DNA from: a virus
DNA: 10,210 nt
Strand: one strand, 5' to 3'
UHGV virus genome: UHGV-0225709
Shown here: piece by piece, positions 1 to 10,210 of the stretch
Layout of the letters: each line of letters starts with the position of its first letter
How positions within the stretch are numbered: position 1 is the first letter of the stretch
Notes under the pieces: generated by a model
The model's input: only the letters and a program-made list of their open reading frames with translations
The model's database searches: none
Told to the model about the DNA's origin: nothing
Program-made: the position numbers and the translations under genes

Positions 1-369
1 TTTTGTCATGACATCAACCCAATTCTTAATACCAGGAATCTCGGTTACTGGACAACTCATATCCCAATAACCAGCCTGTTCCCACGTTAAAACGGGCAAC
101 CGGGCGATGTTGTCACTAATGTAAGGGTACTGATTCAGACGCAGATCATCGGCTTTATCGTGACCGTCCTTTCCATAAAGAATCCATTCAGGAGATTTGG
201 AAAGCAATTTTGACAGTAGATACAAATTCTCACCGTCAGGTTTTGAAGAGCCATTTTCCCATTTTGTTACGGATACACGAGATATGCCGATTGCTTTCGC
301 AACCTGCTGTTGGGTTAATCCAACGTCTTTTCGACGATTCCGAATACGTTCGCTGATAGTGTTTTTCAT
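1..369 (-). CDS. cI: Phage repressor, lambda-cI-like with LexA/S24-type C-terminal domain (partial; the C-terminus lies beyond the window start)
   Basis: Reverse-strand reading frame is open from ATG (complement of 367-369) to the window edge, 123 codons with no stop. The translation begins MKNTISERIRNRRKDVGLTQQQVAKAIGISRVSVTKWENG, a typical XRE/Cro-C1 helix-turn-helix. It continues ...RLPVLTWEQAGYWDMS..., which resembles the lambda cI hinge around its Ala-Gly RecA-stimulated autocleavage site. Absent from the ORF track because it is truncated. Divergent from the downstream cro-like gene. Confidence 0.8.
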   Translation of the reverse strand, partial: MKNTISERIRNRRKDVGLTQQQVAKAIGISRVSVTKWENGSSKPDGENLYLLSKLLSKSPEWILYGKDGHDKADDLRLNQYPYISDNIARLPVLTWEQAGYWDMSCPVTEIPGIKNWVDVMTK

Positions 370-460
370 GTAACCAATGTTACTACCAAGTGATGTTGCT
401 ATGGTTGACATTGTTATGTAACTATTGTTACCCTTTTGCTCGAAATAACAGGAGAGTTTT
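370..460. promoter_or_regulatory. Divergent immunity promoter/operator region between repressor and cro-like gene
   Basis: A 91 bp non-coding gap lies between divergent regulator genes. Two copies of the 14 bp dyad GTAAC-N4-GTTAC occur at 370-383 (gtaaccaatgttac) and 418-431 (gtaactattgttac). A TTGACA hexamer sits at 405-410. The SD ggagag at 444-449 precedes ATG 461. I could not pair the -35 with a convincing -10. Confidence 0.55.
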
Positions 461-676
461 ATGTTCAAAGATGATGTTCTGCGCTATTTCAAAAAAAAGC
501 GACTAGTAGCTGAGGCTCTTGGAATTTCACATGTGGCTGTTGTGCGGTGGAAAGCAGTTATTCCCAAACTTCGCGCAATGGAACTGGATGAAATTACTAA
601 CGGTGAATTGAAATACAACCCAGAACTTTACAAGAAGCAGGATAGCACCTCAAACGAAGGAAAGAATGATTCATGA
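461..676 (+). CDS. cro: Cro-like small DNA-binding regulator (HTH)
   Basis: 71-aa ORF with SD ggagag 12 nt upstream. The motif KKRLVAEALGISHVAVVRWKA is a classic Cro/C1-type HTH. Position immediately divergent from the repressor gene. The stop overlaps the next start (ATGA at 673-676). Confidence 0.75.
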   Translation: MFKDDVLRYFKKKRLVAEALGISHVAVVRWKAVIPKLRAMELDEITNGELKYNPELYKKQDSTSNEGKNDS

Positions 677-1098
677 AAATCAAGCATGAACACATCCGCA
701 TGGCGATGAATGTCTGGGCGCATCCGGACGGCGAAAAAGTACCGGCTGCGAAAATTACCAAAGCGTATTTCGAGCTGGGAATGACGTTCCCGGAACTGTA
801 TGACGACAGCCATCCGGAAGCCCTGGCCCGTAATACCCAGAAAATTTTCCGCTGGGTAGAGAAAGACACCCCTGATGCAGTTGAAAAAATTCAGGCGTTG
901 TTACCAGCGATCGAAAAGGCAATGCCACCTTTGCTGGTGGCCAGAATGCGCAGCCACAGTTCAGCTTATTTTCGGGAGCTGGTGGAGACGCGGGAGCGAC
1001 TGGTGAGAGACGCTGATGATTTTGTCGCAGTGGCAATCGCCGGTTTCAATCAGATGAACCGTGGTGGCCCGGCAGGAAATGCTGTGGCAGTACATTGA
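673..1098 (+). CDS. CII-like phage regulatory protein (YdaT/CP76-like by recollection); function inferred from position
   Basis: 141-aa ORF translationally coupled to the cro-like gene by an ATGA overlap, with SD aaggaaag at 657-664. The product (MKIKHEHIRMAMNVW...) resembles, from memory, the protein encoded after cro-like ydaS in Rac-type prophages. Family assignment not verified. Confidence 0.55.
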   Translation: MKIKHEHIRMAMNVWAHPDGEKVPAAKITKAYFELGMTFPELYDDSHPEALARNTQKIFRWVEKDTPDAVEKIQALLPAIEKAMPPLLVARMRSHSSAYFRELVETRERLVRDADDFVAVAIAGFNQMNRGGPAGNAVAVH

Positions 1099-1169
1099 CT
1101 GACAATAGCCATGTCGAATCGCTTCCGGCAACTCGTGAGTAAAAAGATTCGGTATCAGAAGAGGTGAGT

Positions 1170-2240
1170 ATGGCTAACGCCTGGCTCAGATTATGGCATG
1201 ACATGCCAAATGACCCTAAGTGGCGAACAATTGCCAGGGTGTCAGGGCAGCCAATTGCAACAGTGATGGCAGTATATATCCACCTCCTGGTGAGCGCGTC
1301 ACGAAATGTCACGCGAGGTCACATTGATGTCACGACAGAAGATTTGGCAAGTGCGCTCGACGTGACAGAAGAGGTAATTGATTCAATTTTGCAGACGATG
1401 CAGGGGCGGGTACTTGATGGTGATTTAATCACTGGATGGGAAAAACGCCAGGTGCTGAAAGAGGACAACGGCAATATTTCGCAAACCGCAAAATCTCCGG
1501 CAGAGCGCAAGAGGGCGCAGCGAGAGAGGGAAAGAAAGCGGGAACAAAATGGCGATTGTCACGGCGAGTCACGAAATGTCACGCACATGTCACGACGAGT
1601 CACGACAGATAAAGATACAGATAAAGATACAGATCAAGAAGATCAAAACACTATGGTCCATGGCGTAAAAAACGCCACGAACCAGGCAGGGGATGTTCAG
1701 ACCGTCAATCTCGGTCAGCCAGCAGGCACGACACCGGAAGCCGATTCAGCGTATGCGCTGAAAGCCGATTCGGGCGCTGTGCAGCAGGTGATGACCGCAA
1801 GGCAGGAGCAATCACACCAACTTCAGCAGCCTGAAGCCGATTCCGCCATTCAGCGGGAAGCCGATCGGGTAGTCCCGGAAAACACCGGTCAGTCTGTGGG
1901 ACGAGTGGATTATCCGGATGTGTTCGAACAGGTCTGGCGGGAGTACCCGTTGCGTGCCGGAGCAAACCCGAAGAAATCCGCTTTCAGTGCCTGGAAGGCC
2001 AGATTACGCGAGGGGGTGCCACCAGAGGCCATGCTGGATGGCGTGAGGCGTTACGCAAGATACCTGGCGGCTACCGGGAAAGCGGGAACGGAATTTGTTC
2101 AGCGAGCGACGACGTTTTTTGGACCGGACCGGAATTTTGAGAACCCCTGGTTTCTCCCGGTAAGCGGCACGAACAACCAGCGTTGTGTGAATCATATTAC
2201 TGAACCGGATAACGAAATTCCGCCGGGCTTCAGGGGGTAA
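1170..2240 (+). CDS. Phage replication initiation protein (lambda-O-like organisation, iterons embedded in the gene)
   Basis: 356-aa ORF taking ATG 1170 (the track begins at GTG 1164), with SD gaggtg at 1161-1166. N-terminal region WLRLWHDMPNDPKWRTIARVSGQPIATVMAVY. C-terminal region DYPDVFEQVWREYPLRAGANPKKSAFSAWKARL...GVRRYARYLAATGKAGTEFVQRATTFFGPDRNFENPWFLP matches a motif I recall from phage replication initiator/primosomal-type proteins. Contains iteron arrays and an AT-rich tandem repeat (see repeat features). Sits in the position of P2 gene A. Confidence 0.7.
   Translation: MANAWLRLWHDMPNDPKWRTIARVSGQPIATVMAVYIHLLVSASRNVTRGHIDVTTEDLASALDVTEEVIDSILQTMQGRVLDGDLITGWEKRQVLKEDNGNISQTAKSPAERKRAQRERERKREQNGDCHGESRNVTHMSRRVTTDKDTDKDTDQEDQNTMVHGVKNATNQAGDVQTVNLGQPAGTTPEADSAYALKADSGAVQQVMTARQEQSHQLQQPEADSAIQREADRVVPENTGQSVGRVDYPDVFEQVWREYPLRAGANPKKSAFSAWKARLREGVPPEAMLDGVRRYARYLAATGKAGTEFVQRATTFFGPDRNFENPWFLPVSGTNNQRCVNHITEPDNEIPPGFRG
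1298..1334. repeat. Iteron cluster 1: four GTCAC(G) repeats at 10-11 bp phasing (putative origin element)
   Basis: GTCAC begins at 1298, 1308, 1318 and 1329. An inverted copy CGTGAC lies at 1361-1366. The 17-mer gtcacgaaatgtcacgc at 1298-1314 recurs exactly at 1568-1584. Confidence 0.7.
1558..1650. repeat. Iteron cluster 2 (five GTCACG repeats at 10-11 bp phasing) followed by an AT-rich tandem repeat; putative phage origin of replication inside the rep gene
   Basis: GTCACG at 1558, 1568, 1578, 1589 and 1599. Immediately followed by gataaagataca twice in tandem (1608-1631) and then gatcaagaagatcaaaac. This lies in the region encoding an acidic linker (DKDTDKDTDQEDQ). The arrangement parallels ori-lambda within gene O (iterons followed by an AT-rich unwinding region). 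Confidence 0.7.
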
Positions 2241-2280
2241 GTGTTAATTTCTGGTCATGAGGTAATTTTCAGGAGGGCTT

Positions 2281-2703
2281 GTGGCAAAAGTTTTTACACA
2301 AGAAGAGCGGGAAAAAATTAAAGGGCTGATCGTGGAATTCGTACGCCTTAACGGACGAGGCACGATTCGGCAGTTATCGGATGAAATTGGTGTCAGTCAT
2401 GCGTCTGTCGGTCGTTTATGCATGGAGCTGGCCGCCAGTGGTGATGTTTACAATTCCGGTTACGGAGTATTCCCGTCTGAGCAGGCGCGCAAGGACTGGC
2501 AAAACGCCCGCAAAAAACTCTCAAGGGCAAAGCTGAAGAAACCATCTGTGGTTGATCCGGACCTTATCTGGCTATTACCAGACGGCGAAATACGCCGCTA
2601 CGACAGGCGCCTAAACATAATCTGTCGCGAGTGCCGGAAGAGTGAAGCTATGCAGCGTGTACTGGCTTTCTATCAGGGTAATTTTCAGGAGACGGTACTG
2701 TGA
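2281..2703 (+). CDS. Hypothetical protein with a probable winged-HTH N-terminus and a single C-terminal CxxC
   Basis: 140-aa ORF starting at GTG 2281 with a strong SD aggagg at 2271-2276. GTIRQLSDEIGVSHASVGRLCMELAASG looks like an HTH; followed by a basic stretch (ARKKLSRAKLKK) and CRECRK. No confident family assignment. Confidence 0.6.
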   Translation: MAKVFTQEEREKIKGLIVEFVRLNGRGTIRQLSDEIGVSHASVGRLCMELAASGDVYNSGYGVFPSEQARKDWQNARKKLSRAKLKKPSVVDPDLIWLLPDGEIRRYDRRLNIICRECRKSEAMQRVLAFYQGNFQETVL

Positions 2704-2760
2704 GTGAAATTAGCTATCAGGCTTCAATTACCGCTGGCATTCGCATCAAAGGAGAGGAGC

Positions 2761-3117
2761 ATGGAAATAAAACCAGAGGATGAGTTAAGCAATATCGTTT
2801 TATTTCCGGTAAAAGAGGATGACCCTCGTAATCAGGTTAATTTTCTTTATGAGCCATCGGAAAGACCATATTGTCATCACGCCTCTGTCCGGGTTGACGA
2901 AAAAGAGCGTCAGGTCCGCTGTAAAATCTGCGGTGCAGTTGTGGAGCCGTTTGACTGGATACTCTCTGTGGCGAAAAGAGAAACCAGACTGGCAGATGAT
3001 GTAAGGCTATTGCGCCAGGAGGAACAGGAAAGGCGGAAAAATATAGAAAAGTTAATTCAGATTGAGCGTAACGCGAAAGCGCGGATACGCAGGGCGACAA
3101 AATCCAGAACTGAATAA
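2761..3117 (+). CDS. Hypothetical protein with a putative zinc ribbon (C-x17-CxxC) and a charged, probably coiled-coil C-terminus
   Basis: ATG 2761 preceded by SD aggag at 2750-2754. Product MEIKPEDELSN...CHHASVRVDEKERQVRCKICGAV...RLLRQEEQERRKNIEKLIQIERNAKARIRR. The track ORF starts at GTG 2704 in the same frame; that alternative start is not excluded and is 12 nt downstream of a second copy of the ggtaattttcaggag element. Confidence 0.6.
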   Translation: MEIKPEDELSNIVLFPVKEDDPRNQVNFLYEPSERPYCHHASVRVDEKERQVRCKICGAVVEPFDWILSVAKRETRLADDVRLLRQEEQERRKNIEKLIQIERNAKARIRRATKSRTE

Positions 3118-3167
3118 ATAAATTTAGAGCTGTAAATAAAATCTAATCCTTAACTGGAGGTATATTT

Positions 3168-3380
3168 ATGTTAAATACACAGAAAGCCATTAATGCGGAA
3201 AAATATAACGAGTGGGCAAGAAAATTCTCTGAGCAGATTTTTAAAATTACTGGCGATGAGAATGCGGCAAAAAATGAATTAGAACCGTGGACGCCTGAAG
3301 GAGCCGACTCAAATTATTGCTGGAGGGAGGTTGATCCAGTTGATGCTGCAAATGAAGCTATGAGTTATTACAACGATTAA
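3168..3380 (+). CDS. Small acidic hypothetical protein (70 aa); first gene of the AT-rich cargo segment
   Basis: ATG 3168 with SD ctggagg 6-12 nt upstream. The product has 14 Asp+Glu against 7 Lys+Arg by my count. Lies in markedly AT-rich DNA. Confidence 0.6.
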   Translation: MLNTQKAINAEKYNEWARKFSEQIFKITGDENAAKNELEPWTPEGADSNYCWREVDPVDAANEAMSYYND

Positions 3381-3390
3381 TGTCAGGAGG

Positions 3391-3406
3391 CCGCCCGAAA
3401 GGGCGG
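3391..3406 (+). other. Perfect 6 bp GC stem with GAAA tetraloop (ccgccc-gaaa-gggcgg) directly after an AGGAGG and before two ATGs
   Basis: Seen directly: aggagg 3385-3390, stem 3391-3396 / 3401-3406, ATGs at 3409 and 3413. No U-tract follows, so it is not a canonical intrinsic terminator. May be an RNA processing or translational control element. Confidence 0.5.
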
Positions 3407-3492
3407 TAATGAATGGTCACATTATTTAGAAAAAATATCCGCGAAAGAGTAGAACAACAGAATTTCTGTTTCTCATTCTGTTTATCGTGTTG

Positions 3493-3630
3493 ATGATACC
3501 GATATCCCCGCTAATCCTAGTCTGGATAATCGGAAAAATAATTGAGCCAGTTATTGAATTGTATAACGACGTGGTATGGGCGTCATTCAACACACTGCAC
3601 AATAAAATTAATCCGTATAAGGAAAACTGA
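3493..3630 (+). CDS. Candidate small hydrophobic (single-pass membrane?) peptide, 45 aa
   Basis: ATG 3493 overlaps the stop of a 26-codon upstream ORF (3413-3493) in a TGATG arrangement. Its own stop TGA 3628-3630 sits 1 nt before ATG 3632 of the next gene. Product MIPISPLILVWIIGKIIEPVIELYNDVVWASFNTLHNKINPYKEN has a hydrophobic N-terminal half. Too short for the ORF track. No classical SD of its own, so expression would depend on coupling. Confidence 0.4.
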   Translation: MIPISPLILVWIIGKIIEPVIELYNDVVWASFNTLHNKINPYKEN

Positions 3631-3631
3631 T

Positions 3632-3895
3632 ATGGCAACTTTGACAAAAAAAGAACGGGCATGGTTGAACGAATTACAGGAAGTTCTTGATCGCTGTCCA
3701 TCACCGAAAAAAATTGGCTTTTACACCATTGGCGATAAAAGCATTTACCTGTATGACCTACGCCGCATGGATGAAATCATGGAGGCTCTTGATAATCGTT
3801 CGTCAATGGATTGGTGTGTTGCTGTCCATGATATGAATGCAGGGTTTGATGAAAAGATTTTGTTCCCCTCATCAGTTGAAAGCACAGCAGGATAA
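3632..3895 (+). CDS. Hypothetical small protein (87 aa), last gene before the terminator
   Basis: ATG 3632 with SD aagga at 3619-3623. The track ORF begins at TTG 3542 in the same frame, but the internal ATG with SD is the better start. Product MATLTKKERAWLNELQEVLDRCPSPKKIGFYTIGDKSIYLYDLRRMDEIMEALDNRSS... Followed 37 nt later by an intrinsic terminator. Confidence 0.6.
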   Translation: MATLTKKERAWLNELQEVLDRCPSPKKIGFYTIGDKSIYLYDLRRMDEIMEALDNRSSMDWCVAVHDMNAGFDEKILFPSSVESTAG

Positions 3896-3931
3896 GGACC
3901 CAGCAAATATACACAACCTATAAAACACTAA

Positions 3932-3956
3932 AGCGCCTCAGGGGCGCTTTTTGTTT
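3932..3956 (+). terminator. Rho-independent terminator closing the rightward early/cargo operon
   Basis: Stem agcgcc (3932-3937), loop tcagg, stem ggcgct (3943-3948), followed by tttttgttt. Confidence 0.75.
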
Positions 3957-3982
3957 GCACAAAAGTGCACAAATTTGCACAA
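3956..3982. repeat. Three direct TGCACAA repeats at exactly 10 bp phasing, followed by a T7 tract
   Basis: TGCACAA at 3956-3962, 3966-3972 and 3976-3982. Helical phasing puts the sites on one DNA face. Candidate protein-binding array (small terminase/cosB-like or a regulator). Confidence 0.5.
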
Positions 3983-4052
3983 TTTTTTTGAACGACTTTT
4001 TACCCTTCCGGCCCGCATGGCGGCTGGATCCGTCAAGGATCCGTGCGTGCAC

Positions 4053-4076
4053 AAAAAAACGCGCTTTTTCTGCGCG
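4053..4076 (-). terminator. Candidate Rho-independent terminator for leftward transcription (short stem)
   Basis: On the minus strand: CGCGC-agaaaaa-GCGCG followed by TTTTTTT (plus-strand aaaaaaa at 4053-4059). The stem is only 5 bp, so moderate confidence. Convergent with the plus-strand terminator at 3932-3956. Confidence 0.45.
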
Positions 4077-4353
4077 CAGGTGACGGGGGAACAGCCCGCG
4101 TTTCAGGGGGTAAATAGCATTCCCTGAACGATGTCGCAGAGATACAACAGAATGGCTGTATTTCTCACGCTGAGCGTGAAAAAGACGTGAGGGCTTTTGA
4201 TTTGATGGGGTGAAAGGTAAGGCCGTCAAAATCGCACTGAGACGGCGAGAACATGCAGTCAACGCGGTGGGATTGCGTAAGAGTCTGACTGTCGATGATG
4301 GCAATCAGCAGGAAAGCGTCGTGAAATTATCTGATTGATACAGGAGCTGGAGA

Positions 4354-4382
4354 GCCGGGGCATAAATTTTTTATGCCCCGGC
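4354..4382. other. Inverted repeat / hairpin immediately downstream of the portal gene
   Basis: gccggggcat (4354-4363) pairs with atgccccggc (4373-4382), extendable through flanking A/T. Lies 25 nt past the Q-like stop. No clear U-tract on either strand. Confidence 0.45.
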
Positions 4383-4406
4383 GAAGCAGCAGACAAGCGA
4401 AGCGCG

Positions 4407-5453
4407 TCAGGATGTGGGCTGGGTGTCTAACAGTGCGTAAGGGTTAAAGCGGATCACCTTTTCGCCAAGCCAGTCATTGATGTGCTTCATGGCCTCCATG
4501 ACGGGCATCAGTTCGTTAATTGCGTAAACCCGCGCGGCCTTCTCCACATCACCAAACGCACTTTTTTCGCCCGGCATCGCCCCCATCAGTTGCGGCGGAA
4601 CGCGGTGCGCAGCCAGCACATCATCACGGGATGCCGCCTTAACATTCATGAACTCATCCTTTGCGGTGATCTGCTGGAACGGCAAAATTTGCACCCCCTC
4701 TTTGCCCCCGTTGGGCGCATGAATGAGCACGTTTTTAAACGCACCGCCACCACGCGCACCCTGTAACGTTTCTTTCAGGGAGTCCATGCTTTCGCGGTTT
4801 ACCTGCGCTGCACCGATGTAGATGATGCACCCGGCATGGGATCCGTTGTCGTAATACAGTTTTCTGAACATGTCCGCCGAATGAGACAGGCTGGCCGAGA
4901 GTAATGCGCCAAGATATTCCGGCATGCCGTAGATTTCCTGGTTAATGTCAGGATTCATCAGGTGGCACACTTTGCCTGGGCGAAACTGAAACGCATCCTT
5001 ACCATCCTGCACATACCACCATGATTCAAGATCGCTTCCGCGTCGCATGTATTTCGCTAGGGCGTGCCGTAATTTAAGCGGTTCGCCGAGCATATTGCTT
5101 CGAAGCTCAAGGAATGCGTTACCGAACACAAACCAGTCCAGCGCCAGCGCCGAGAAATCCTGCCGGGAAAGCAGCGGGTGCGGGATGTAGCAACCGAGTA
5201 ATACATTGCGCTTAAAGTAAAGCGCAGACTGATGCCAGGACGTTTGCCGGGCAGCTCTTGCCAGACCGTACCAGTCCACCGGTGTTTCATACCACCGCCC
5301 GTTATCAGCACAGTACATATTGTCCAGCAAATCATGCCCGGTCAGGCGATAAGGACCATCAAATGTGAATGCACTGAGCGATGATTCTTTCCTGAGCGCA
5401 TCAGCGAGATCAATGCGTGAACTCATGCGCACTTTTTTATTTTTTCTGCTCAT
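4407..5453 (-). CDS. Q: Portal protein, P2 gpQ-like
   Basis: 348-aa ORF on the minus strand with SD GGAG 5 nt upstream of its ATG (complement of 5451-5453). Size and position (adjacent to and co-oriented with large terminase, next to the cos region) match P2 Q. The start overlaps the terminase stop (ATGA). Confidence 0.8.
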   Translation of the reverse strand: MSRKNKKVRMSSRIDLADALRKESSLSAFTFDGPYRLTGHDLLDNMYCADNGRWYETPVDWYGLARAARQTSWHQSALYFKRNVLLGCYIPHPLLSRQDFSALALDWFVFGNAFLELRSNMLGEPLKLRHALAKYMRRGSDLESWWYVQDGKDAFQFRPGKVCHLMNPDINQEIYGMPEYLGALLSASLSHSADMFRKLYYDNGSHAGCIIYIGAAQVNRESMDSLKETLQGARGGGAFKNVLIHAPNGGKEGVQILPFQQITAKDEFMNVKAASRDDVLAAHRVPPQLMGAMPGEKSAFGDVEKAARVYAINELMPVMEAMKHINDWLGEKVIRFNPYALLDTQPTS

Positions 5454-7204
5454 CAGAACTCCATAACCGTGAAACGCTCGTTTTCTCCTTCGCCGCCAAT
5501 TGGTTCGTTAATGACAGCAAGCATGGTTGCCCACGCAAGGTCGCCGTGGCTGATCCCCCTCGCGCGGTCCGTTTCGTAAGTGATAAAGCCGCCCGGTGTT
5601 TTCACCTTACGCACGGCGTTAAAGGCTGCGACCAGCTCGCGTTCGGCGCGATCGTATTCCCACCGCCCGGCACGCATTATTTGCAGCATTTTCAGTACCA
5701 GCGACCGTTTTGATGACAGCGTGAAGGTGTACGGAATAGCAGCAGGGAAAAACCGTTTCACTATCTGATAAACAGCCTCCCCGTTCCCGCCTGTCACATC
5801 AATGCCGATGTGTTCCACGTTGTAGCGACACGTGAACTCTTCAATGACTCTGGCCTGTTCTTCAAACTCCAGCCCCTGAACGCGTCGCGTCTCCACCGTT
5901 CGAAAACGGCCTCCAGGAACAGCCGGAGGAACCACCACGGACACAGCGCCGCTGTCGCCGTTTCCACTGCTGCCGTTTGCGTCATACCCAATCCATACCG
6001 GACGATTCCCCATCGGGCGGGGAGCAAAAGGTTTCCAGTCTTTCCAGTCGTCGTATCCGTCAACACCGCAGCCAATCAGGATATTCAGGTTAAATGCCGA
6101 TTCCCCTTCGCGGACAAACTCACACATATAGAGATTGAGGAACTCATCTTCGGTGTTTTCATCACGAATTTCGTCGATATCGGTGTGTTTCCAGCCGTGA
6201 TTAACCACATCTTCCAGCGTGACAATTTGCCGCCACGTCCGGTCAGGGCAGATAAGCCCGTTATGCAGCGTTTTCCAGTCCACAGAAAAACGCTGGCGTT
6301 TATGCGAGGCCTTTTTCTCGTTCCAGCGGTCGCCGTTCCAGTAGGCGTATGCCTCGTGCGTTTCGGTGGATGGCGTGGAAAAGTAGGTGCGCCGCAGTCC
6401 GCTGAGGGTTGCCATAGCGCCAGCCACCTTGCGCAGTTCAGCAAAGCGACTGACCCAGAAAAATTCATCAAAATAAAAATTGCCCGTATAGGACTGTGCC
6501 GACGCAGCAGAAGTGCCGAGAAAATGCAGCTCTGCGCCGTTGGAGAGGATGATTTTATCGCCCCCTTTCAGCTCCACATCAACTTCAGCCGCGGCCTTCT
6601 GAATAATGCTTTTAAACTGGAACGCCTGACGACGCGACGCAGACAAAAAAATCTGGTTACGCTGGTAAGGTTGCGCCACATCGTCACGCAGCGCCATCAG
6701 CAGAGCTTCCTGTGCAAAATACCAGGTCGCCCCAATCTGTCGGGATTTCAGGATCATCCTGTTACGTATCCCGGCTTCCCTGCAAAGGGTCAGGGTGTCA
6801 AACCAGCCCCGCTGATGCCACTCCAGCCTGCTGATGATTTTTTCCCGCAGTGCGGCAATCTGTTCCGGCGTGAAATGATTTTTGAGTTTTTTCGCCCGGC
6901 CTTTCTTTCCTGCGGCCGTCACATCCGGCTGGCCATCATGCAGCTTTTTAAGCTGCCGGGTCAGCAGGTCTATTTCCTTAAAGTCACCGCCTGTTTTATT
7001 CTGTTTTTCAGTAAGCTGGATGAGGCGCGCATCGATGGACTGCGTGACACGCTGCACGGGTGGCGTTTCATCCCACTGGTCGCGTTTTTTCCACGCATAA
7101 ATCGTGTTCGGGTTTATTCCCATCAGACGTGATATTTCTGCGGGCGGATAACCCTGCCAGTAAAGTTGCCGCGCACGCTGGCGCACAAAAGCGTCCTGAA
7201 TCAT
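5453..7204 (-). CDS. P: Terminase large (ATPase) subunit, P2 gpP-like
   Basis: 583-aa ORF. Contains a P-loop-like KSRQIGAT motif and acidic nuclease-domain-like segments. Length and position match P2 P (about 590 aa). SD agggggag upstream of the ATG (complement of 7202-7204). Confidence 0.85.
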   Translation of the reverse strand: MIQDAFVRQRARQLYWQGYPPAEISRLMGINPNTIYAWKKRDQWDETPPVQRVTQSIDARLIQLTEKQNKTGGDFKEIDLLTRQLKKLHDGQPDVTAAGKKGRAKKLKNHFTPEQIAALREKIISRLEWHQRGWFDTLTLCREAGIRNRMILKSRQIGATWYFAQEALLMALRDDVAQPYQRNQIFLSASRRQAFQFKSIIQKAAAEVDVELKGGDKIILSNGAELHFLGTSAASAQSYTGNFYFDEFFWVSRFAELRKVAGAMATLSGLRRTYFSTPSTETHEAYAYWNGDRWNEKKASHKRQRFSVDWKTLHNGLICPDRTWRQIVTLEDVVNHGWKHTDIDEIRDENTEDEFLNLYMCEFVREGESAFNLNILIGCGVDGYDDWKDWKPFAPRPMGNRPVWIGYDANGSSGNGDSGAVSVVVPPAVPGGRFRTVETRRVQGLEFEEQARVIEEFTCRYNVEHIGIDVTGGNGEAVYQIVKRFFPAAIPYTFTLSSKRSLVLKMLQIMRAGRWEYDRAERELVAAFNAVRKVKTPGGFITYETDRARGISHGDLAWATMLAVINEPIGGEGENERFTVMEF

Positions 7205-7358
7205 TGCTCCCCCTGAGTAATTACAGGAAGATTACCCGCGCGCGAAACCGTTCTCCTTAACCCCCTGTTCTGGCCGTTTTCTTACAACAAAAGCCCTTTG
7301 TATCAGCCTGTTACGCTTTGCCATCATGACTGAAGAACCAGTCAGAGGGGCAAAAACT
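7205..7358. promoter_or_regulatory. Divergent intergenic region between the P-like and O-like genes; expected location of divergent late promoters
   Basis: 154 bp non-coding gap between divergently transcribed packaging/head operons, as in P2 (P_P and P_O). I could not find convincing sigma70 -35/-10 pairs nor an exact TGT-N12-ACA dyad (only TGT-N15-ACA at 7266-7286). An 8 bp palindrome gtaattac lies at 7217-7224. Confidence 0.5.
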
Positions 7359-8195
7359 ATGGCTAATGAAAAAAAGACATCCCGCAAAAAGTTTCGCGTG
7401 GCTGTCTCCGGATCAACTGTTGATGGCCGCGAAATCAGCCCGGTACATCTGCGTGAAGCCGCCGAGAACTTCAACCCGGATGTTTACGCTGCCCGCGTGA
7501 ACGTTGAGCACTATCTCTCGCCATGCCCGTCAAGCGAATTTTCCGCAATGGGCGATGTCACCGCGCTGAGTACGGAAGATATTACGGAAGGCCCGCTGGC
7601 CGGACGTACTGCGCTGTATGCAGAAATCGAACCGACCGAGCGCATGAAGCAGCTTGTCGCTGACGGCAAGAAAATCTATTCCAGTATCGAACTGCACCCG
7701 CAGTTCTCCGTTAACGGGCGCGCCTATCTGGTCGGGCTGGCGATGACCGACACCCCGGCAAGCCTGGGCACTGAGCGCCTGAAATTCACGGCACAGCAGC
7801 GTCAGGCGGTGATGACGTTCAACAGTATTCAGGGTGAAGCACCGCTTATCTCCGAAGCCATCGAGTCTGAAATCATCGAAATGGCAGAACAACGCCAGGA
7901 AGAAGGCACCCAGTGGTTTAACCGCGTAATGGGGATTATTGGTCGTGGCCGCAAAGCGGATGACGCCAGTTTCTCCCGTATTCAGGAAGCGGTGGAAGGC
8001 GTCGCAACGTCACAGGCCGACATTATCGACCGTTTTAATGTGCTGGAAACCCGCCATCAGCAGGACAGCAAGAAAATCACGTCACTGACCACAGAGCTGA
8101 CAGCTCTGACGGAAAAACTGCGCACGCAGGACGGCGATCCGCAGAACCGCTTCACCGCAACGGGCGCAGCCTCCGACCAGCTGGCTGACTTCTGA
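7359..8195 (+). CDS. O: Capsid scaffolding protein, P2 gpO-like
   Basis: ATG 7359 with SD agagggg at 7343-7349 (the track begins at ATG 7326, 11 codons upstream). The segments GSTVDGREISPVHLREAAENFNPDVY and ...GRAYLVGLAMTDTPASLGTERLKF... resemble P2 O as I recall it. Correct size (about 280 aa) and position before the major capsid gene. Confidence 0.8.
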   Translation: MANEKKTSRKKFRVAVSGSTVDGREISPVHLREAAENFNPDVYAARVNVEHYLSPCPSSEFSAMGDVTALSTEDITEGPLAGRTALYAEIEPTERMKQLVADGKKIYSSIELHPQFSVNGRAYLVGLAMTDTPASLGTERLKFTAQQRQAVMTFNSIQGEAPLISEAIESEIIEMAEQRQEEGTQWFNRVMGIIGRGRKADDASFSRIQEAVEGVATSQADIIDRFNVLETRHQQDSKKITSLTTELTALTEKLRTQDGDPQNRFTATGAASDQLADF

Positions 8196-8218
8196 TAAGA
8201 CAAAGGAGCAAATTTTTT

Positions 8219-9271
8219 ATGAATCTGGTGATGTCAGATATTACCCGCAACAAGCTGGGTTGCTATATGGCGCAGCAGGCGTCGCTTAACAATATCCCGG
8301 TATCTGCACTGGTATCGCGATTTACCGTGGAACCCGCGGTGCAGCAGCGTTTTGAAAACGCCTCAAAGGAAAGTACCGAATTTACGAAAAGAATTAACGT
8401 GATCGGCGTGACCGACCAGAAAGGCGAAAAAATCCTCCTGGACACCACCGGGCCAATTGCGCGCACGAATAGCAGTTATGACGGCATCAAACGCCGTAAC
8501 CCGAATAACGTGATCGATATGAACTCTCGTCAGTACCAGTGCGAACAGGTGAACTACGATACCTTTATTTCGTACCCACAGCTTGATACCTGGGCGGCCC
8601 ACAGCGATTTTCAGTCCCGTATCAGTACACAGATCGCCCGGCAGGTAGCGCTTGATCGCATCATGATTGGCTTTAACGGCACATCCCACGCCTACGAGTC
8701 TGATTTTCACACCAACAAGCTGCTTCAGGACGTTAACGTGGGCTGGCTGGAGCACATCAGAACCGATGCCAGCGAGCGCGTAATGAATGACGTGACGCTG
8801 ACCTCCCGCAACATGGACAACACTGTGGCGCACGCGGGTAAGTATGCGAATGCCGATGCTCTGGTACAGGATGCGCGCTCATCCCTGCTGGATGAATGGC
8901 ACAAGGAAGCTGACGACCTTGTGGTGATTATGGGGCGCAACCTGTTTAACTCGCTGCGTCTGCCCGTACTGAACAGCATCAGCGGCCAGAATCCCAATGC
9001 GGAATTACTTGCCGGGCAGCTCATCCTGTCATCGCGCACCATTGGCGGGCTGGGCGTGTTCCTTGCGCCGTTCTTCCCGGATGCAACGATGCTGATCACC
9101 TCGTTCAACAACCTGTCGATTTACTGGCAGAAAGGTTCAATGCGTCGCCTGATGAAAGACGAGCCGGAATACAACCGCATCGCCACCTACCAGTCCATCA
9201 ATGACGCTTATGTCGTTGAAGACTATGGCAAGTGCGCGATGGTCACTGGCTTGAAGTTCGCCGACAGCTAA
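8219..9271 (+). CDS. N: Major capsid protein, P2 gpN-like
   Basis: 350-aa ORF with SD aaaggagc at 8203-8210. The segments ...FTVEPAVQQ..., ...IMIGFNGTSHA..., ...VGWLEHIR..., ...DLVVIMGRNL..., ...MLITSFNNLSIYWQ... and ...YVVEDYGKCAMV... match the P2 N family pattern as I recall it. Confidence 0.85.
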   Translation: MNLVMSDITRNKLGCYMAQQASLNNIPVSALVSRFTVEPAVQQRFENASKESTEFTKRINVIGVTDQKGEKILLDTTGPIARTNSSYDGIKRRNPNNVIDMNSRQYQCEQVNYDTFISYPQLDTWAAHSDFQSRISTQIARQVALDRIMIGFNGTSHAYESDFHTNKLLQDVNVGWLEHIRTDASERVMNDVTLTSRNMDNTVAHAGKYANADALVQDARSSLLDEWHKEADDLVVIMGRNLFNSLRLPVLNSISGQNPNAELLAGQLILSSRTIGGLGVFLAPFFPDATMLITSFNNLSIYWQKGSMRRLMKDEPEYNRIATYQSINDAYVVEDYGKCAMVTGLKFADS

Positions 9272-9316
9272 TCAACTCACGGCGGGCATCATGCCCGCCT
9301 GTAACGGAGAGAAAAA

Positions 9317-10117
9317 ATGATTACTCCTGCACAACAACACTGGCAGAACGTGATGGCACAGCGCGCAGGCCGGGCGAATGAAGGTGTGGACCACGCCGCG
9401 CGTACCGCGCATGAAGAGGTGCTGTATCGTCTGCGTCTGGCACAGGCCAGGCTAAAGGGCGTACAGGCCAGAAGCGCGAAAGCCGCCATCAAAAAAGAGT
9501 TGTTGCCGGATTTTTCCGGCTGGATTGAGGGAACGCTGGAAGCTGACGGCGGGCAGCAGGATGAAGTGATTGCCACGCTGATGGTGTGGGCGATTGACTG
9601 TGGCGATCTTCCGCTTGCGCTGCGTATCGGCGCGTATGTGGTCCATCACAACCTCATCATGCCGGATAACTTTGGCCGTACTGCTGCCACGGTACTGACC
9701 GAAGAAATCTGTAATCCGGTACTGACGCAGGCCGGGACGGATGCCGACGCGGATTTGTCCGCCTTTATCGAACCACTGGACACCCTCCGGGAGATTGTCA
9801 CCGACCAGGACATGCCGGACGAAGTGCGCGCCAAATTATGCAAAGCGTGCGCCTTTGCCCGCCGTGGCCTGACCGATGCGGACAGCATGGCCTCATCACT
9901 GAAGCTGCTGCGCGAAGCAATGCACCTGAACCCGAACGCAGGTGTGAAACGCGAGATTGCAACCCTTTCCCGCGCCCTGAAAAAAGCCGATTCCGCAGCC
10001 GCACCAGAAGATGCCAGCACACCGCAGGCGCAGGACGAAAGCAGCAAAAGTAAAAAGACAACGCGGAAGCCTGCAACACGAAAAACCACCGCGACGCAGA
10101 AGGCGAAGCGCGGTTAA
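9317..10117 (+). CDS. M: Terminase small (endonuclease) subunit, P2 gpM-like
   Basis: 266-aa ORF with SD ggagag at 9305-9310. N-terminus MITPAQQHWQNVMAQRA..., ...KKELLPDFSGWIEG... and a basic K/R-rich C-terminal tail are characteristic of P2 M-type small terminases. Gene order O-N-M. Confidence 0.8.
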   Translation: MITPAQQHWQNVMAQRAGRANEGVDHAARTAHEEVLYRLRLAQARLKGVQARSAKAAIKKELLPDFSGWIEGTLEADGGQQDEVIATLMVWAIDCGDLPLALRIGAYVVHHNLIMPDNFGRTAATVLTEEICNPVLTQAGTDADADLSAFIEPLDTLREIVTDQDMPDEVRAKLCKACAFARRGLTDADSMASSLKLLREAMHLNPNAGVKREIATLSRALKKADSAAAPEDASTPQAQDESSKSKKTTRKPATRKTTATQKAKRG

Positions 10118-10132
10118 CGACTGACCCCGTCA

Positions 10133-10204
10133 GCGGGCGGCGTGCGCGGTGTTCCGGTTTGACTCCGTGACCGTTTACACCGCGCACCCACCGCCCGATT
10201 TTTT
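10133..10204 (+). other. Long imperfect inverted repeat followed by a T6 tract between the M-like gene and the next SD (terminator- or attenuator-like)
   Basis: Left arm gcgggcgg-cgtgcgcggtg (10133-10151) pairs with caccgcgcac (10178-10187) and ccgcccg (10191-10197) across a 3 nt bulge. Loop is about 26 nt. tttttt at 10199-10204, then caggag SD at the window edge. Confidence 0.4.
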
Positions 10205-10210
10205 CAGGAG

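What the first reader, a model, noticed from the sequence alone, without database searches (positions are those of the whole stretch)
3956..3990. Helically phased TGCACAA triple repeat next to the early terminator
Three exact 7-mers at 10 bp spacing, followed by a T7 tract (intrinsic bend or IHF-like context), lie at the edge of the presumed cos region. Such phased arrays are typical binding platforms (small terminase cosB-type sites, or a regulator). I do not recognise the motif from P2.
Basis: seen in the sequence. Interest (0 to 1): 0.5.

Follow-up and report, generated by a model that had tools for sequence, protein, structure and literature searches.

The report
Distal repeat boxes of P2-type cos site
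The three TGCACAA repeats are real and form the conserved outer edge of this P2-like prophage's DNA-packaging (cos) signal, most likely a docking array for the phage terminase, so this is an ordinary kind of element whose fixed layout across the P2 family seems under-described.

Summary
Observation confirmed. TGCACAA occurs at 3956, 3966 and 3976 (+), followed by T7. None of 3000 dinucleotide shuffles of the window gives such an array.

It lies 72 bp after copy 3 and about 31 bp before a homolog of the P2 cohesive end (GGTGACGGGGGAACAGCCC, 4079-4097).

The window is a P88-like (Xuanwuvirus) E. coli prophage: lambdoid early genes joined to P2-type Q, P, O, N, M.

In portal-anchored relatives from about 20 enterobacterial genera the layout recurs: unrelated left flank, three phased boxes, a variable spacer, and a fourth box exactly 72 bp on, then cos. 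Close relatives carry about 20 unrelated left flanks, all joined at box 1.

P2, 186, PSP3 and the satellite P4 keep the geometry with TGCAT boxes. phiCTX uses GCAG boxes. Distal and proximal boxes change together.

Box 4 is the left edge of the published 55-bp P2-family cos core. The triplet lies outside it and is not annotated in the P2, 186 or P4 records.

Best reading: a cosB-like terminase recognition array. No binding data exist. It is a new member or variant of a known kind.

The parts
3930..3955 (+). Intrinsic terminator (hairpin plus T-run) of the upstream cargo or early genes. It is the last piece of the variable left flank and is not part of cos.
   Evidence: MFE -13.5 kcal/mol, z = -3.06. 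This segment is replaced by unrelated DNA in relatives.
3956..3962 (+). Box 1 (TGCACAA). It is the first base of the DNA conserved with all relatives.
   Evidence: alignments start at 3956; about 20 unrelated left flanks are joined here. Variants seen are TGCACGA and CGCACAA.
3966..3972 (+). Box 2 (TGCACAA)
   Evidence: a conservation island; position -82 from box 4 in 126 of 143 distinct cos regions.
3976..3982 (+). Box 3 (TGCACAA), the best conserved of the distal three
   Evidence: It lies exactly 72 bp before box 4, as it does in P2, P4, 186, PSP3 and SEN4.
3983..3989 (+). T7 tract after box 3. It is conserved in TGCACAA-type phages only.
   Evidence: It is absent in P2, 186 and P4.
3990..4047 (.). 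Spacer of fixed length and variable sequence. Here it holds GC-rich dyads, including GGATCC-N5-GGATCC at 4026-4042.
   Evidence: low information content; an inverted repeat is frequent but not universal.
4048..4059 (+). Box 4 (TGCACAA) plus A-run. It corresponds to the left edge of the P2-family 55-bp cos core.
   Evidence: P2 TGCATTAAAACC...GCGCGC is 29+19+7 = 55 bp. The 55-bp core is cited.
4060..4077 (.). GC hairpin (CGCGC-N7-GCGCG) between box 4 and cos. On the minus strand it looks like a terminator.
   Evidence: P2 has an equivalent CCGCCC..GGGCGG hairpin.
4079..4097 (+). Predicted cohesive-end segment (GGTGACGGGGGAACAGCCC), the homolog of P2 GGCGAGGCGGGGAAAGCAC
   Evidence: Stacked sequences. 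13 of 19 bases are identical to P2 without gaps (read). The SEN4 sticky ends ggcgaggcgggggaacgag lie at the same position (PMC5261728). The physical ends were not determined.
7016..7189 (-). N-terminal helix-turn-helix domain of large terminase P (residues 6-63). It is a candidate reader of the boxes.
   Evidence: PF06056 Terminase_5, HTH_23. (the recognition helix tracks box type).
9317..10117 (+). Small terminase M (PF05944), the other candidate reader
   Evidence: It is 37-40% identical to P2 M, depending on the method.
4407..5453 (-). Portal gene Q, used as the anchor for the unbiased set of relatives

Best explanation
The three TGCACAA boxes are the distal part of the cos packaging signal of a P2-family (P88-like) prophage. 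With a fourth identical box at 4048 they form a same-orientation array that the phage terminase recognises.

Proposed mechanism:
- The three boxes sit one helical turn apart, so they present on one face of the DNA.
- Box 4 lies a fixed 72 bp (about seven turns) further on.
- One terminase assembly could hold both sites by looping or wrapping the variable spacer. This would place the nuclease on the nick sites about 30 bp right of box 4 (predicted cohesive end 4079-4097).

Shown here: the array, its geometry, its conservation, its position as the border of the conserved cos block, and the joint change of all four boxes between lineages.

Inferred: that terminase binds it, which subunit does so, and the loop or wrap.
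For: 1. The array is non-random: 0 of 3000 shuffles.
2. In portal-anchored relatives, chosen without regard to repeats, from Salmonella, Citrobacter, Edwardsiella, Serratia, Kosakonia, Brenneria, Pantoea, Klebsiella, Morganella and others, the same order recurs: variable flank, three boxes, spacer, box 4, hairpin, cos.
3. The information profile of 32 non-redundant sequences is about zero left of box 1 and peaks on the boxes.
4. Of 143 distinct TGCACAA-type cos regions, 126 have boxes exactly at -92, -82 and -72 from box 4. Of 67 TGCAT-type regions, 66 have them at -95 or -94, -82 and -72.
5. About 20 unrelated left flanks join exactly at box 1 in relatives with 99-100% identical portals. BLAST alignments start at 3956.
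6. In 80 P4-like satellites the hypervariable DNA starts 7 bp right of the cohesive end, while the boxes stay conserved down to 62% Psu identity. The only block shared by phage and satellite is therefore box 1 to cos+7.
7. The boxes change together. All four are TGCACAA here, TGCAT in P2, P4, 186 and PSP3, and (T/C)GCAG(A/G)(A/G) in phiCTX. All but phiCTX infect E. coli or Salmonella, which argues for a phage-encoded reader.
8. P carries an N-terminal HTH. Its recognition helix is NT[IVL]Y.W[KR][KR]R in all TGCACAA-type phages, PTVQSWKQR in P2 and 186, and KTLHSWKDR in phiCTX.
Against: - There are no binding or packaging data for this or any P2-family distal box in the literature I could read. 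Papers cite only a 55-bp core.
- From memory, Ziermann and Calendar (1990) found about 125 bp sufficient. That might exclude boxes 1-2, so the triplet could be stimulatory rather than essential. I could not read that paper.
- The helix-to-box correlation rests on three lineages and follows phylogeny. M diverges in parallel.
- Distant marine P2-like prophages and a Klebsiella Elveevirus showed no recognisable array or cos.
- The boxes lie on the right-end side of the genome. Whether that end enters the capsid first is not settled here.
Confidence: 0.7

Rival explanations
1. The array is a packaging-termination or end-recognition element, analogous to lambda cosQ, rather than the initiation binding site. 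It lies on the right-end side of the mature chromosome and would be met last if packaging runs from the Q-side end.
For: The boxes lie left of the cohesive end, on the side away from Q and P. The direction of P2 packaging could not be established from the papers held.
Against: P4-like satellites have no conserved DNA beyond 7 bp on the other side of cos, so no other candidate binding site exists. Lambda cosQ is a single short element, not a phased array (my own knowledge).
Confidence: 0.12
2. The boxes bind a host architectural or replication protein (IHF, Fis, DnaA), or act only as intrinsically bent DNA through phased A/T tracts, helping cos fold without being read by terminase.
For: ATTTGCACA and GTTTGCACA match the relaxed DnaA box TTWTNCACA at 8 of 9 positions (read; the consensus is from memory). 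A/T tracts follow each box in phase. The phiCTX record annotates an IHF site roughly 290-320 bp before cosR.
Against: P2, 186 and P4 infect the same host yet use TGCAT boxes that lack the CACA of a DnaA box. A host protein would not need lineage-specific boxes. The T7 tract is not conserved outside the TGCACAA group. The conserved positions are the TGCA cores, not the A/T tracts.
Confidence: 0.08
3. The array is transcriptional: operator sites for a phage regulator of flanking genes, or part of a tandem terminator after the early or cargo operon.
For: It directly follows a terminator. Boxes 2 and 3 can pair (GTGCA/TGCAC) ahead of T7. In P2 the equivalent boxes lie upstream of the old promoter.
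Against: The fold is no better than shuffles (z = 0.14). No sigma-70 promoter was found in 3900-4450. There were no meaningful Rfam matches (two chance-level matches far below their gathering scores). The array persists next to wholly different left-hand genes and with three different early-gene sets: lambdoid here, P2-type and 186-type. It is also present in P4. It travels with cos, not with regulators.
Confidence: 0.05
4. The sharp boundary at box 1 marks a recombination hotspot that promotes exchange of the adjacent cargo or defence region. It would then not be a packaging element.
For: Many unrelated left flanks join at the same base. The cos-proximal locus is a known hotspot of variation in P2-like phages (PMC9122126).
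Against: A boundary of conservation is expected at the edge of any essential site. This idea does not explain the fourth box, the 72-bp invariance, or the presence of the boxes in P4, whose hotspot lies on the other side of cos.
Confidence: 0.05

Closest known systems
P2 / P4 / 186 cos site: 19-nt cohesive ends within a 55-bp conserved core (Ziermann and Calendar 1990, as cited in PMC9594776, PMC5694545 and PMC3931495)
   Same: Same gene context (next to portal Q), a homologous G-rich cohesive-end segment, a GC hairpin, and a proximal TGCA box with an A-run at the left edge of the core. P2, P4, 186 and PSP3 also have three distal boxes, with box 3 at -101 from the nick and 72 bp before the proximal box.
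   Different: The box is TGCACAA, not TGCAT. The period is an exact 10+10 bp rather than 12-13+10. A T7 tract follows box 3. The cohesive-end homolog is 13 of 19 identical to P2. Box 4 sits 31 rather than 29 bp from the predicted nick. The distal triplet is outside the published 55-bp core and is not annotated in the P2, P4 or 186 records.
Lambda cosB: three gpNu1 R sites plus an IHF site beside cosN
   Same: Several copies of a short terminase-subunit recognition sequence next to the nicking site, with DNA bending proposed to bring them together (my own knowledge).
   Different: The lambda R sites lie on the terminase-gene side and flank an IHF site. Here all boxes are direct repeats on the side away from the terminase genes, split 3+1 by a fixed 72-bp spacer. 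No IHF site was shown. The terminase proteins are unrelated in sequence to gpNu1.
phiCTX cos-region repeats (R3 and R4-R6 repeat regions and an IHF site annotated in NC_003278)
   Same: A P2-family phage in which repeats around cos were already noted by the depositors. Boxes lie at -109, -99, -83, -37 and -28 from cosR, and -99 to -28 is 71 bp.
   Different: The box sequence is (T/C)GCAG(A/G)(A/G). There are extra copies, and the spacing of the distal copies is less regular.

Membership tests
P2-family cos site | G-rich segment of about 19 nt homologous to GGCGAGGCGGGGAAAGCAC, next to the portal gene Q on the side away from P | tested here: met
   4079-4097 GGTGACGGGGGAACAGCCC is 13 of 19 identical to P2. 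It aligns in register with P2, 186, SEN4 and 30 other relatives. Q lies at 4407-5453.
P2-family cos site | 55-bp conserved core: proximal box plus A-run, GC hairpin, cohesive end, then a GCGC-rich tail | tested here: met
   4048-4100 has all four elements in the same order. The spacing is 31 bp instead of 29.
P2-family cos site | Physical 5' cohesive ends produced at this site in virion DNA | not testable with these tools
   No virion end data are available. The LR595891 record starts at window 4001, which looks arbitrary.
P2-family cos site | Terminase of the gpP and gpM type encoded nearby | tested here: met
   PF03237, PF17289 and PF06056 in P, and PF05944 in M.
Terminase recognition array (cosB-like) | Specific binding of a terminase subunit to the repeats | not testable with these tools
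   The support is indirect only: conservation, joint change of the boxes, and sharing with satellite P4.
Terminase recognition array (cosB-like) | Repeats are needed for, or stimulate, packaging | not tested
   This needs cosmid transduction assays. PMC9594776 only notes that longer cos flanks may contribute to higher transduction efficiency.
DnaA-box cluster | Match to TTWTNCACA kept across homologous sites | tested here: not met
   The match is 8 of 9 in this lineage only. The P2, 186 and P4 boxes (TGCAT) lack CACA.
Intrinsic terminator or structured RNA | Stable hairpin followed by a U-run, folding better than shuffles | tested here: not met
   The array folds at -7 kcal/mol with z = 0.14. 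There was no meaningful Rfam match.

The most novel reading that the evidence does not exclude
The 3+1 box array is a lineage-specific 'address code' for P2-family packaging. It would be read by the N-terminal helix-turn-helix of the large terminase gpP, not, or not only, by the small subunit. The invariant GCA core would pair with the invariant T..SW..R residues of the recognition helix. The variable 3' bases (CAA, T, or GR) would pair with the variable helix residues (N..Y, P..Q, or K..H).

The fixed 72-bp spacer would set a defined DNA loop or wrap. The code would decide which helpers a P4-like satellite can exploit. P4, with TGCAT boxes, would then not be packaged by P88-like phages, which use TGCACAA.
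Probability: 0.3. Interest if true: 0.7.

Novelty: new member of a known kind. Interest (0 to 1): 0.5.

Why it matters
P2 and P4 are the classic helper-satellite pair, and P2/P4 cosmids are now used to deliver antimicrobials. Yet the papers I could read define cos only as a 55-bp core.

If the distal boxes are part of the signal, three things follow:
- The functional cos is about 150 bp, here 3956 to about 4105.
- Cosmid design and the annotation of cos in prophages should include the boxes.
- Box sequence, together with terminase type, would predict which phages can package which satellites.

This cos type is common. It was found in 1205 of 5426 complete E. coli genomes.

The exact edge of the array also marks where the variable cargo (defence-hotspot) region of these prophages begins.

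Tried and rejected
- Ziermann and Calendar 1990 and the Christie and Calendar P2 review are not held. I could not check whether the deletion endpoints cover the triplet. Eight literature searches returned only the '55-bp core' statement.
- A scan of IMG/VR for the exact triple pattern looked for satellites with TGCACAA boxes. Of the 80 matches read, 70 have a P2-type portal about 0.4-1 kb to the right. Five are cut off by a contig end before the portal. Five are unrelated arrays on contigs with no portal (L235, L237, L242, L268, L283). No TGCACAA-type satellite was found. All 80 Psu-anchored P4-like elements are TGCAT-type.
- Distant relatives gave nothing. Shewanella, Colwellia, Pseudoalteromonas and Porphyrobacter prophages (portal 31-42% identical) have no recognisable cos or phased array within 1.8 kb. 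The cos of Klebsiella Kp4872-2 was not found. The Ralstonia YO089_2 record lacks the portal side. Mannheimia PHL101 has three GTGTGCA boxes (spacing 13 and 10 bp) but about 180-200 bp from its end and next to int, so its homology is unclear.
- A GC inverted repeat in the spacer is frequent but not universal. It is absent in P2 and weak in many others, so I do not claim it as a part.
Neither has a solved relative.
- LR595891 starting at window 4001 was considered as a physical end. It was rejected because it matches no conserved feature.
- DnaA-box, terminator and Rfam readings were rejected.

Full report
**What is in the sequence**

The stretch 3950-3995 reads TTTGTTTGCACAAAAGTGCACAAATTTGCACAATTTTTTTGAACGA. 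Exact TGCACAA copies start at 3956, 3966 and 3976 on the + strand, followed by T7 at 3983-3989. Just to the left, 3930-3950 is a strong hairpin with a T-run, so it is a real intrinsic terminator (fold z = -3.06).

The array is not chance. None of 3000 dinucleotide-preserving shuffles of the window holds three exact 7-mers at equal 9-12 bp spacing.

A fourth same-strand copy, TGCACAAAAAAA, starts at 4048, 72 bp after the third. No further copies with up to one mismatch lie between 4055 and the portal gene.

**Context**

The window is a mosaic.
- Bases 1-3900 match lambdoid early and replication genes.
- From 3956 rightwards it matches P88-like phages (genus Xuanwuvirus, Peduoviridae) at 95-98%.
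- The P2-type genes are portal Q (4407-5453, -), large terminase P (5453-7204, -), O, N, and small terminase M (9317-10117, +).

In P2 the cohesive-end site lies just beyond Q, so 3956-4400 is the expected cos region. This cos region occurs in 1205 of 5426 complete E. coli genomes. Most alignments begin at query base 57, which is window 3956.

**Conservation test in close relatives**

- P88 and P88_4B11 keep all three 7-mers. The first spacer differs (TAG instead of AAG), and the DNA to the left is unrelated.
- Of 79 IMG/VR relatives with 99-100% identical portals, 78 keep the three-box array at the same place. The other has IS1 in its cos.
- In those relatives, about 20 unrelated left flanks are joined exactly at box 1.
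- The only box changes seen are TGCACGA or CGCACAA in box 1, and single cases of CGCACAA in box 2 and TGCATAA in box 3.

**Conservation test in distant relatives**

I collected P2-like prophages by portal similarity alone, from one genome per species. In the 39 enterobacterial loci the order is always the same:
- a variable flank;
- three (T/C)GCA-type boxes with a 10-bp period;
- a spacer of variable sequence;
- a fourth box, TGCACAAAAA;
- a GC hairpin;
- GCGCGCAGG(C/T)GA..CGGGGG, the homolog of the P2 cohesive end.

These loci span Salmonella, Citrobacter, Edwardsiella, Trabulsiella, Serratia, Symbiopectobacterium, Kosakonia, Brenneria, Enterobacter, Pantoea, Mixta, Klebsiella, Yokenella, Erwinia and Morganella. 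Portal identity runs from 99% down to 54%. Two loci are degenerate: L030, and L047, the latter from an endosymbiont genome.

An information profile of 32 non-redundant sequences is near zero left of box 1. It peaks on boxes 1-3, falls in the spacer, and rises again from box 4 through the cohesive end. The box 4 peak is partly an artefact, because the sequences were stacked on box 4.

Over all distinct sequences in hand:
- 126 of 143 TGCACAA-type regions have boxes exactly 92, 82 and 72 bp before box 4.
- Most of the rest have one degenerate box.
- Two regions carry a 1-bp deletion.

Many of these sequences are close relatives, so the counts are not independent events.

**The same geometry in P2, 186, PSP3 and P4, with another box**

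TGCA core positions, counted from the first base of the cohesive end:

| Element | Box 1 | Box 2 | Box 3 | Box 4 | Source |
|---|---|---|---|---|---|
| Window (from predicted 4079) | -123 | -113 | -103 | -31 | |
| P2 | -123 | -111 | -101 | -29 | |
| 186 | -124 | -111 | -101 | -29 | |
| PSP3 | -120 | -111 | -101 | -29 | |
| SEN4 | -134 | -111 | -101 | -29 | |
| P4 | -124 | -111 | -101 | -29 | |

- The P2 right end reads gtTGCATTcaagggTGCATgagatTGCATTaag ... ggTGCATTaaaaccgccccgtgaagcgggcg, followed by GGCGAGGCGGGGAAAGCAC.
- SEN4 mixes TGCACAA and TGCATTG boxes. Its reported sticky ends start at the predicted place (PMC5261728).
- P4 is a satellite that shares only cos with P2 (PMC9122126). It reads caTGCATcgataaggTGCATggcttTGCATGcg, then acTGCATTaaaacc 72 bp later.
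- In every one of these elements, box 3 to box 4 is 72 bp.

**Evidence from P4-like satellites**

In 80 P4-like satellites found through Psu:
- The three TGCAT boxes are kept even at 62% Psu identity.
- The spacer between box 3 and box 4 diverges.
- The DNA becomes hypervariable 7 bp after the cohesive end. This is the known P4 defence hotspot.

In P2-like phages the hypervariable DNA is on the other side, left of box 1. The only block common to helper and satellite therefore runs from box 1 to cos+7, about 150 bp.

**phiCTX**

phiCTX has (T/C)GCAG(A/G)(A/G) boxes at -109, -99, -83, -37 and -28. Its GenBank record already labels repeat regions R3 and R4-R6 and an IHF site around cos.

**Relation to the literature**

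Papers I could read describe the P2-family cos as a conserved 55-bp core, citing Ziermann and Calendar 1990. In P2, TGCATTAAAACC...GCGGGCG (29 bp) plus the 19-nt end plus TGCGCGC (7 bp) is exactly 55 bp. So box 4 appears to be the left edge of that core. This is my inference from the sequence.

The distal triplet lies outside the core. It is not annotated in the P2, P4 or 186 records, although the 186 record is very richly annotated.

The 1990 paper is not held. From memory it reported that about 125 bp suffice. If so, the triplet may be stimulatory rather than essential, and the paper may already mention it. One paper notes that longer cos flanks may contribute to higher P2 cosmid transduction (PMC9594776).

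**Mechanism**

All four boxes point the same way. They change together between lineages: TGCACAA, TGCAT or GCAGR. P88-like phages and P2, 186 and P4 share E. coli as host. A host protein would not need different boxes, so a phage-encoded reader is the simplest explanation.

The array also stays with the packaging genes while the early genes differ. They are lambdoid here, P2-type in P2 and 186-type in 186. It is present in P4 as well. That argues against a transcriptional regulator.

There are two candidate readers.
- The small terminase M (PF05944) is one.
- The N-terminal helix-turn-helix of the large terminase P is the other (PF06056 and HTH_23, residues 6-63).

The second helix of the P motif varies with box type:
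- NT[IVL]Y[AST]W[KR][KR]R in every TGCACAA-type phage. This includes SEN4 and Morganella, whose domain is otherwise only about 37-40% identical to the window.
- PTVQSWKQR in P2 and 186.
- KTLHSWKDR in phiCTX.

This is a lead, not proof. It rests on three lineages, it follows phylogeny, and M diverges in parallel. Neither protein has a solved relative.

The 10-bp period puts the three boxes on one face of the helix. The invariant 72 bp (about seven turns) puts box 4 on the same face. The fixed length with free sequence suggests a loop or wrap held by one terminase assembly. That geometry is inferred.

**Rivals**

- Terminator or RNA structure. The array folds no better than shuffles (z = 0.14), and Rfam gives nothing meaningful.
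- Promoter or operator. No sigma-70 match was found in 3900-4450, and DNA right of cos+30 is not conserved across genera.
- DnaA boxes. The 8-of-9 matches exist only in this lineage, and the TGCAT boxes lack CACA.
- Recombination hotspot. A sharp edge of conservation is expected beside any essential site. This idea does not explain box 4, the spacing, or P4.
- A termination (cosQ-like) role cannot be excluded. I could not establish which end of P2 DNA is packaged first.

**Limits**

- There is no biochemical or genetic evidence here.
- The cohesive end at 4079-4097 is predicted by homology only.
- Marine P2-like prophages (portal 31-42% identical) and a Klebsiella Elveevirus showed no recognisable array. 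The layout is therefore shown only for enterobacterial P2-like phages, P4-like satellites and, loosely, phiCTX.

**Verdict**

The element is an ordinary kind of thing: repeats that form part of a cos packaging signal, in a well-known phage family.

What seems under-described is the constant 3+1 layout, its lineage-specific box sequence, and the possible role of the large terminase helix-turn-helix.

Noticed in passing
window 7016-7189 (-), residues 6-63 of P: The large terminase carries an N-terminal helix-turn-helix (PF06056, HTH_23). Its recognition helix differs between phage lineages in step with the cos box type.
   Followed up: partly
window 4059-4077 (minus strand): The GC hairpin between box 4 and the predicted cohesive end, followed by the T-run complementary to the box 4 A-run, scores as a terminator on the minus strand. 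P2 has an equivalent hairpin followed by TTTTAAT. It may stop leftward read-through into cos.
   Followed up: no
one of L061-L140 (IMG/VR relatives): One close relative has an IS1 end inserted immediately left of AGGTGACGGGGG. This is inside the predicted cos, between box 4 and the cohesive end, so it is probably a packaging-dead prophage.
   Followed up: no
L247, L253, L257, L296, L302; L003 (PhiR44_2) 2355-2879: Some relatives carry about 620 bp of extra DNA, a 525-bp ORF in PhiR44_2, between cos and the portal gene. This is a second small cargo slot on the Q side of cos.
   Followed up: no
window 1-3900 versus 3956-10210: This is a mosaic prophage: lambdoid cII, O replication and Ea22-like genes are joined to P2-type head genes. 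The join is exactly at box 1.
   Followed up: partly
whole window: TGCACAA with up to one mismatch is rarer than expected: 27 sites against 40.9 +/- 6.6 in shuffles, and all 200 shuffles had at least 27. This may be mild avoidance of the box outside cos, or chance.
   Followed up: no
window 4026-4042: Two BamHI-type palindromes, GGATCC-N5-GGATCC, lie in the spacer. Related phages often have a GC-rich inverted repeat (CCGCGCC..GGCGCGG) at the same place, but P2 and several others do not.
   Followed up: partly
L344 (Mannheimia phage PHL101), about 180-200 bp before the record end: Three GTGTGCA boxes spaced 13 and 10 bp apart, the same spacing as in P4 and 186. They lie further from cos and next to int, and no proximal box was seen. 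Homology is uncertain.
   Followed up: partly
L237, L242, L268, L283 (IMG/VR contigs): Unrelated viral contigs carry TGCACAA-containing 10-bp tandem arrays with no P2-type portal nearby. Their nature is unknown.
   Followed up: no
L349 (Klebsiella phage Kp4872-2) 12300-12860: An ORF lies directly beside the portal gene where cos would be expected. It is cargo on the Q side, and no P2-type cohesive-end motif occurs anywhere in the record.
   Followed up: partly
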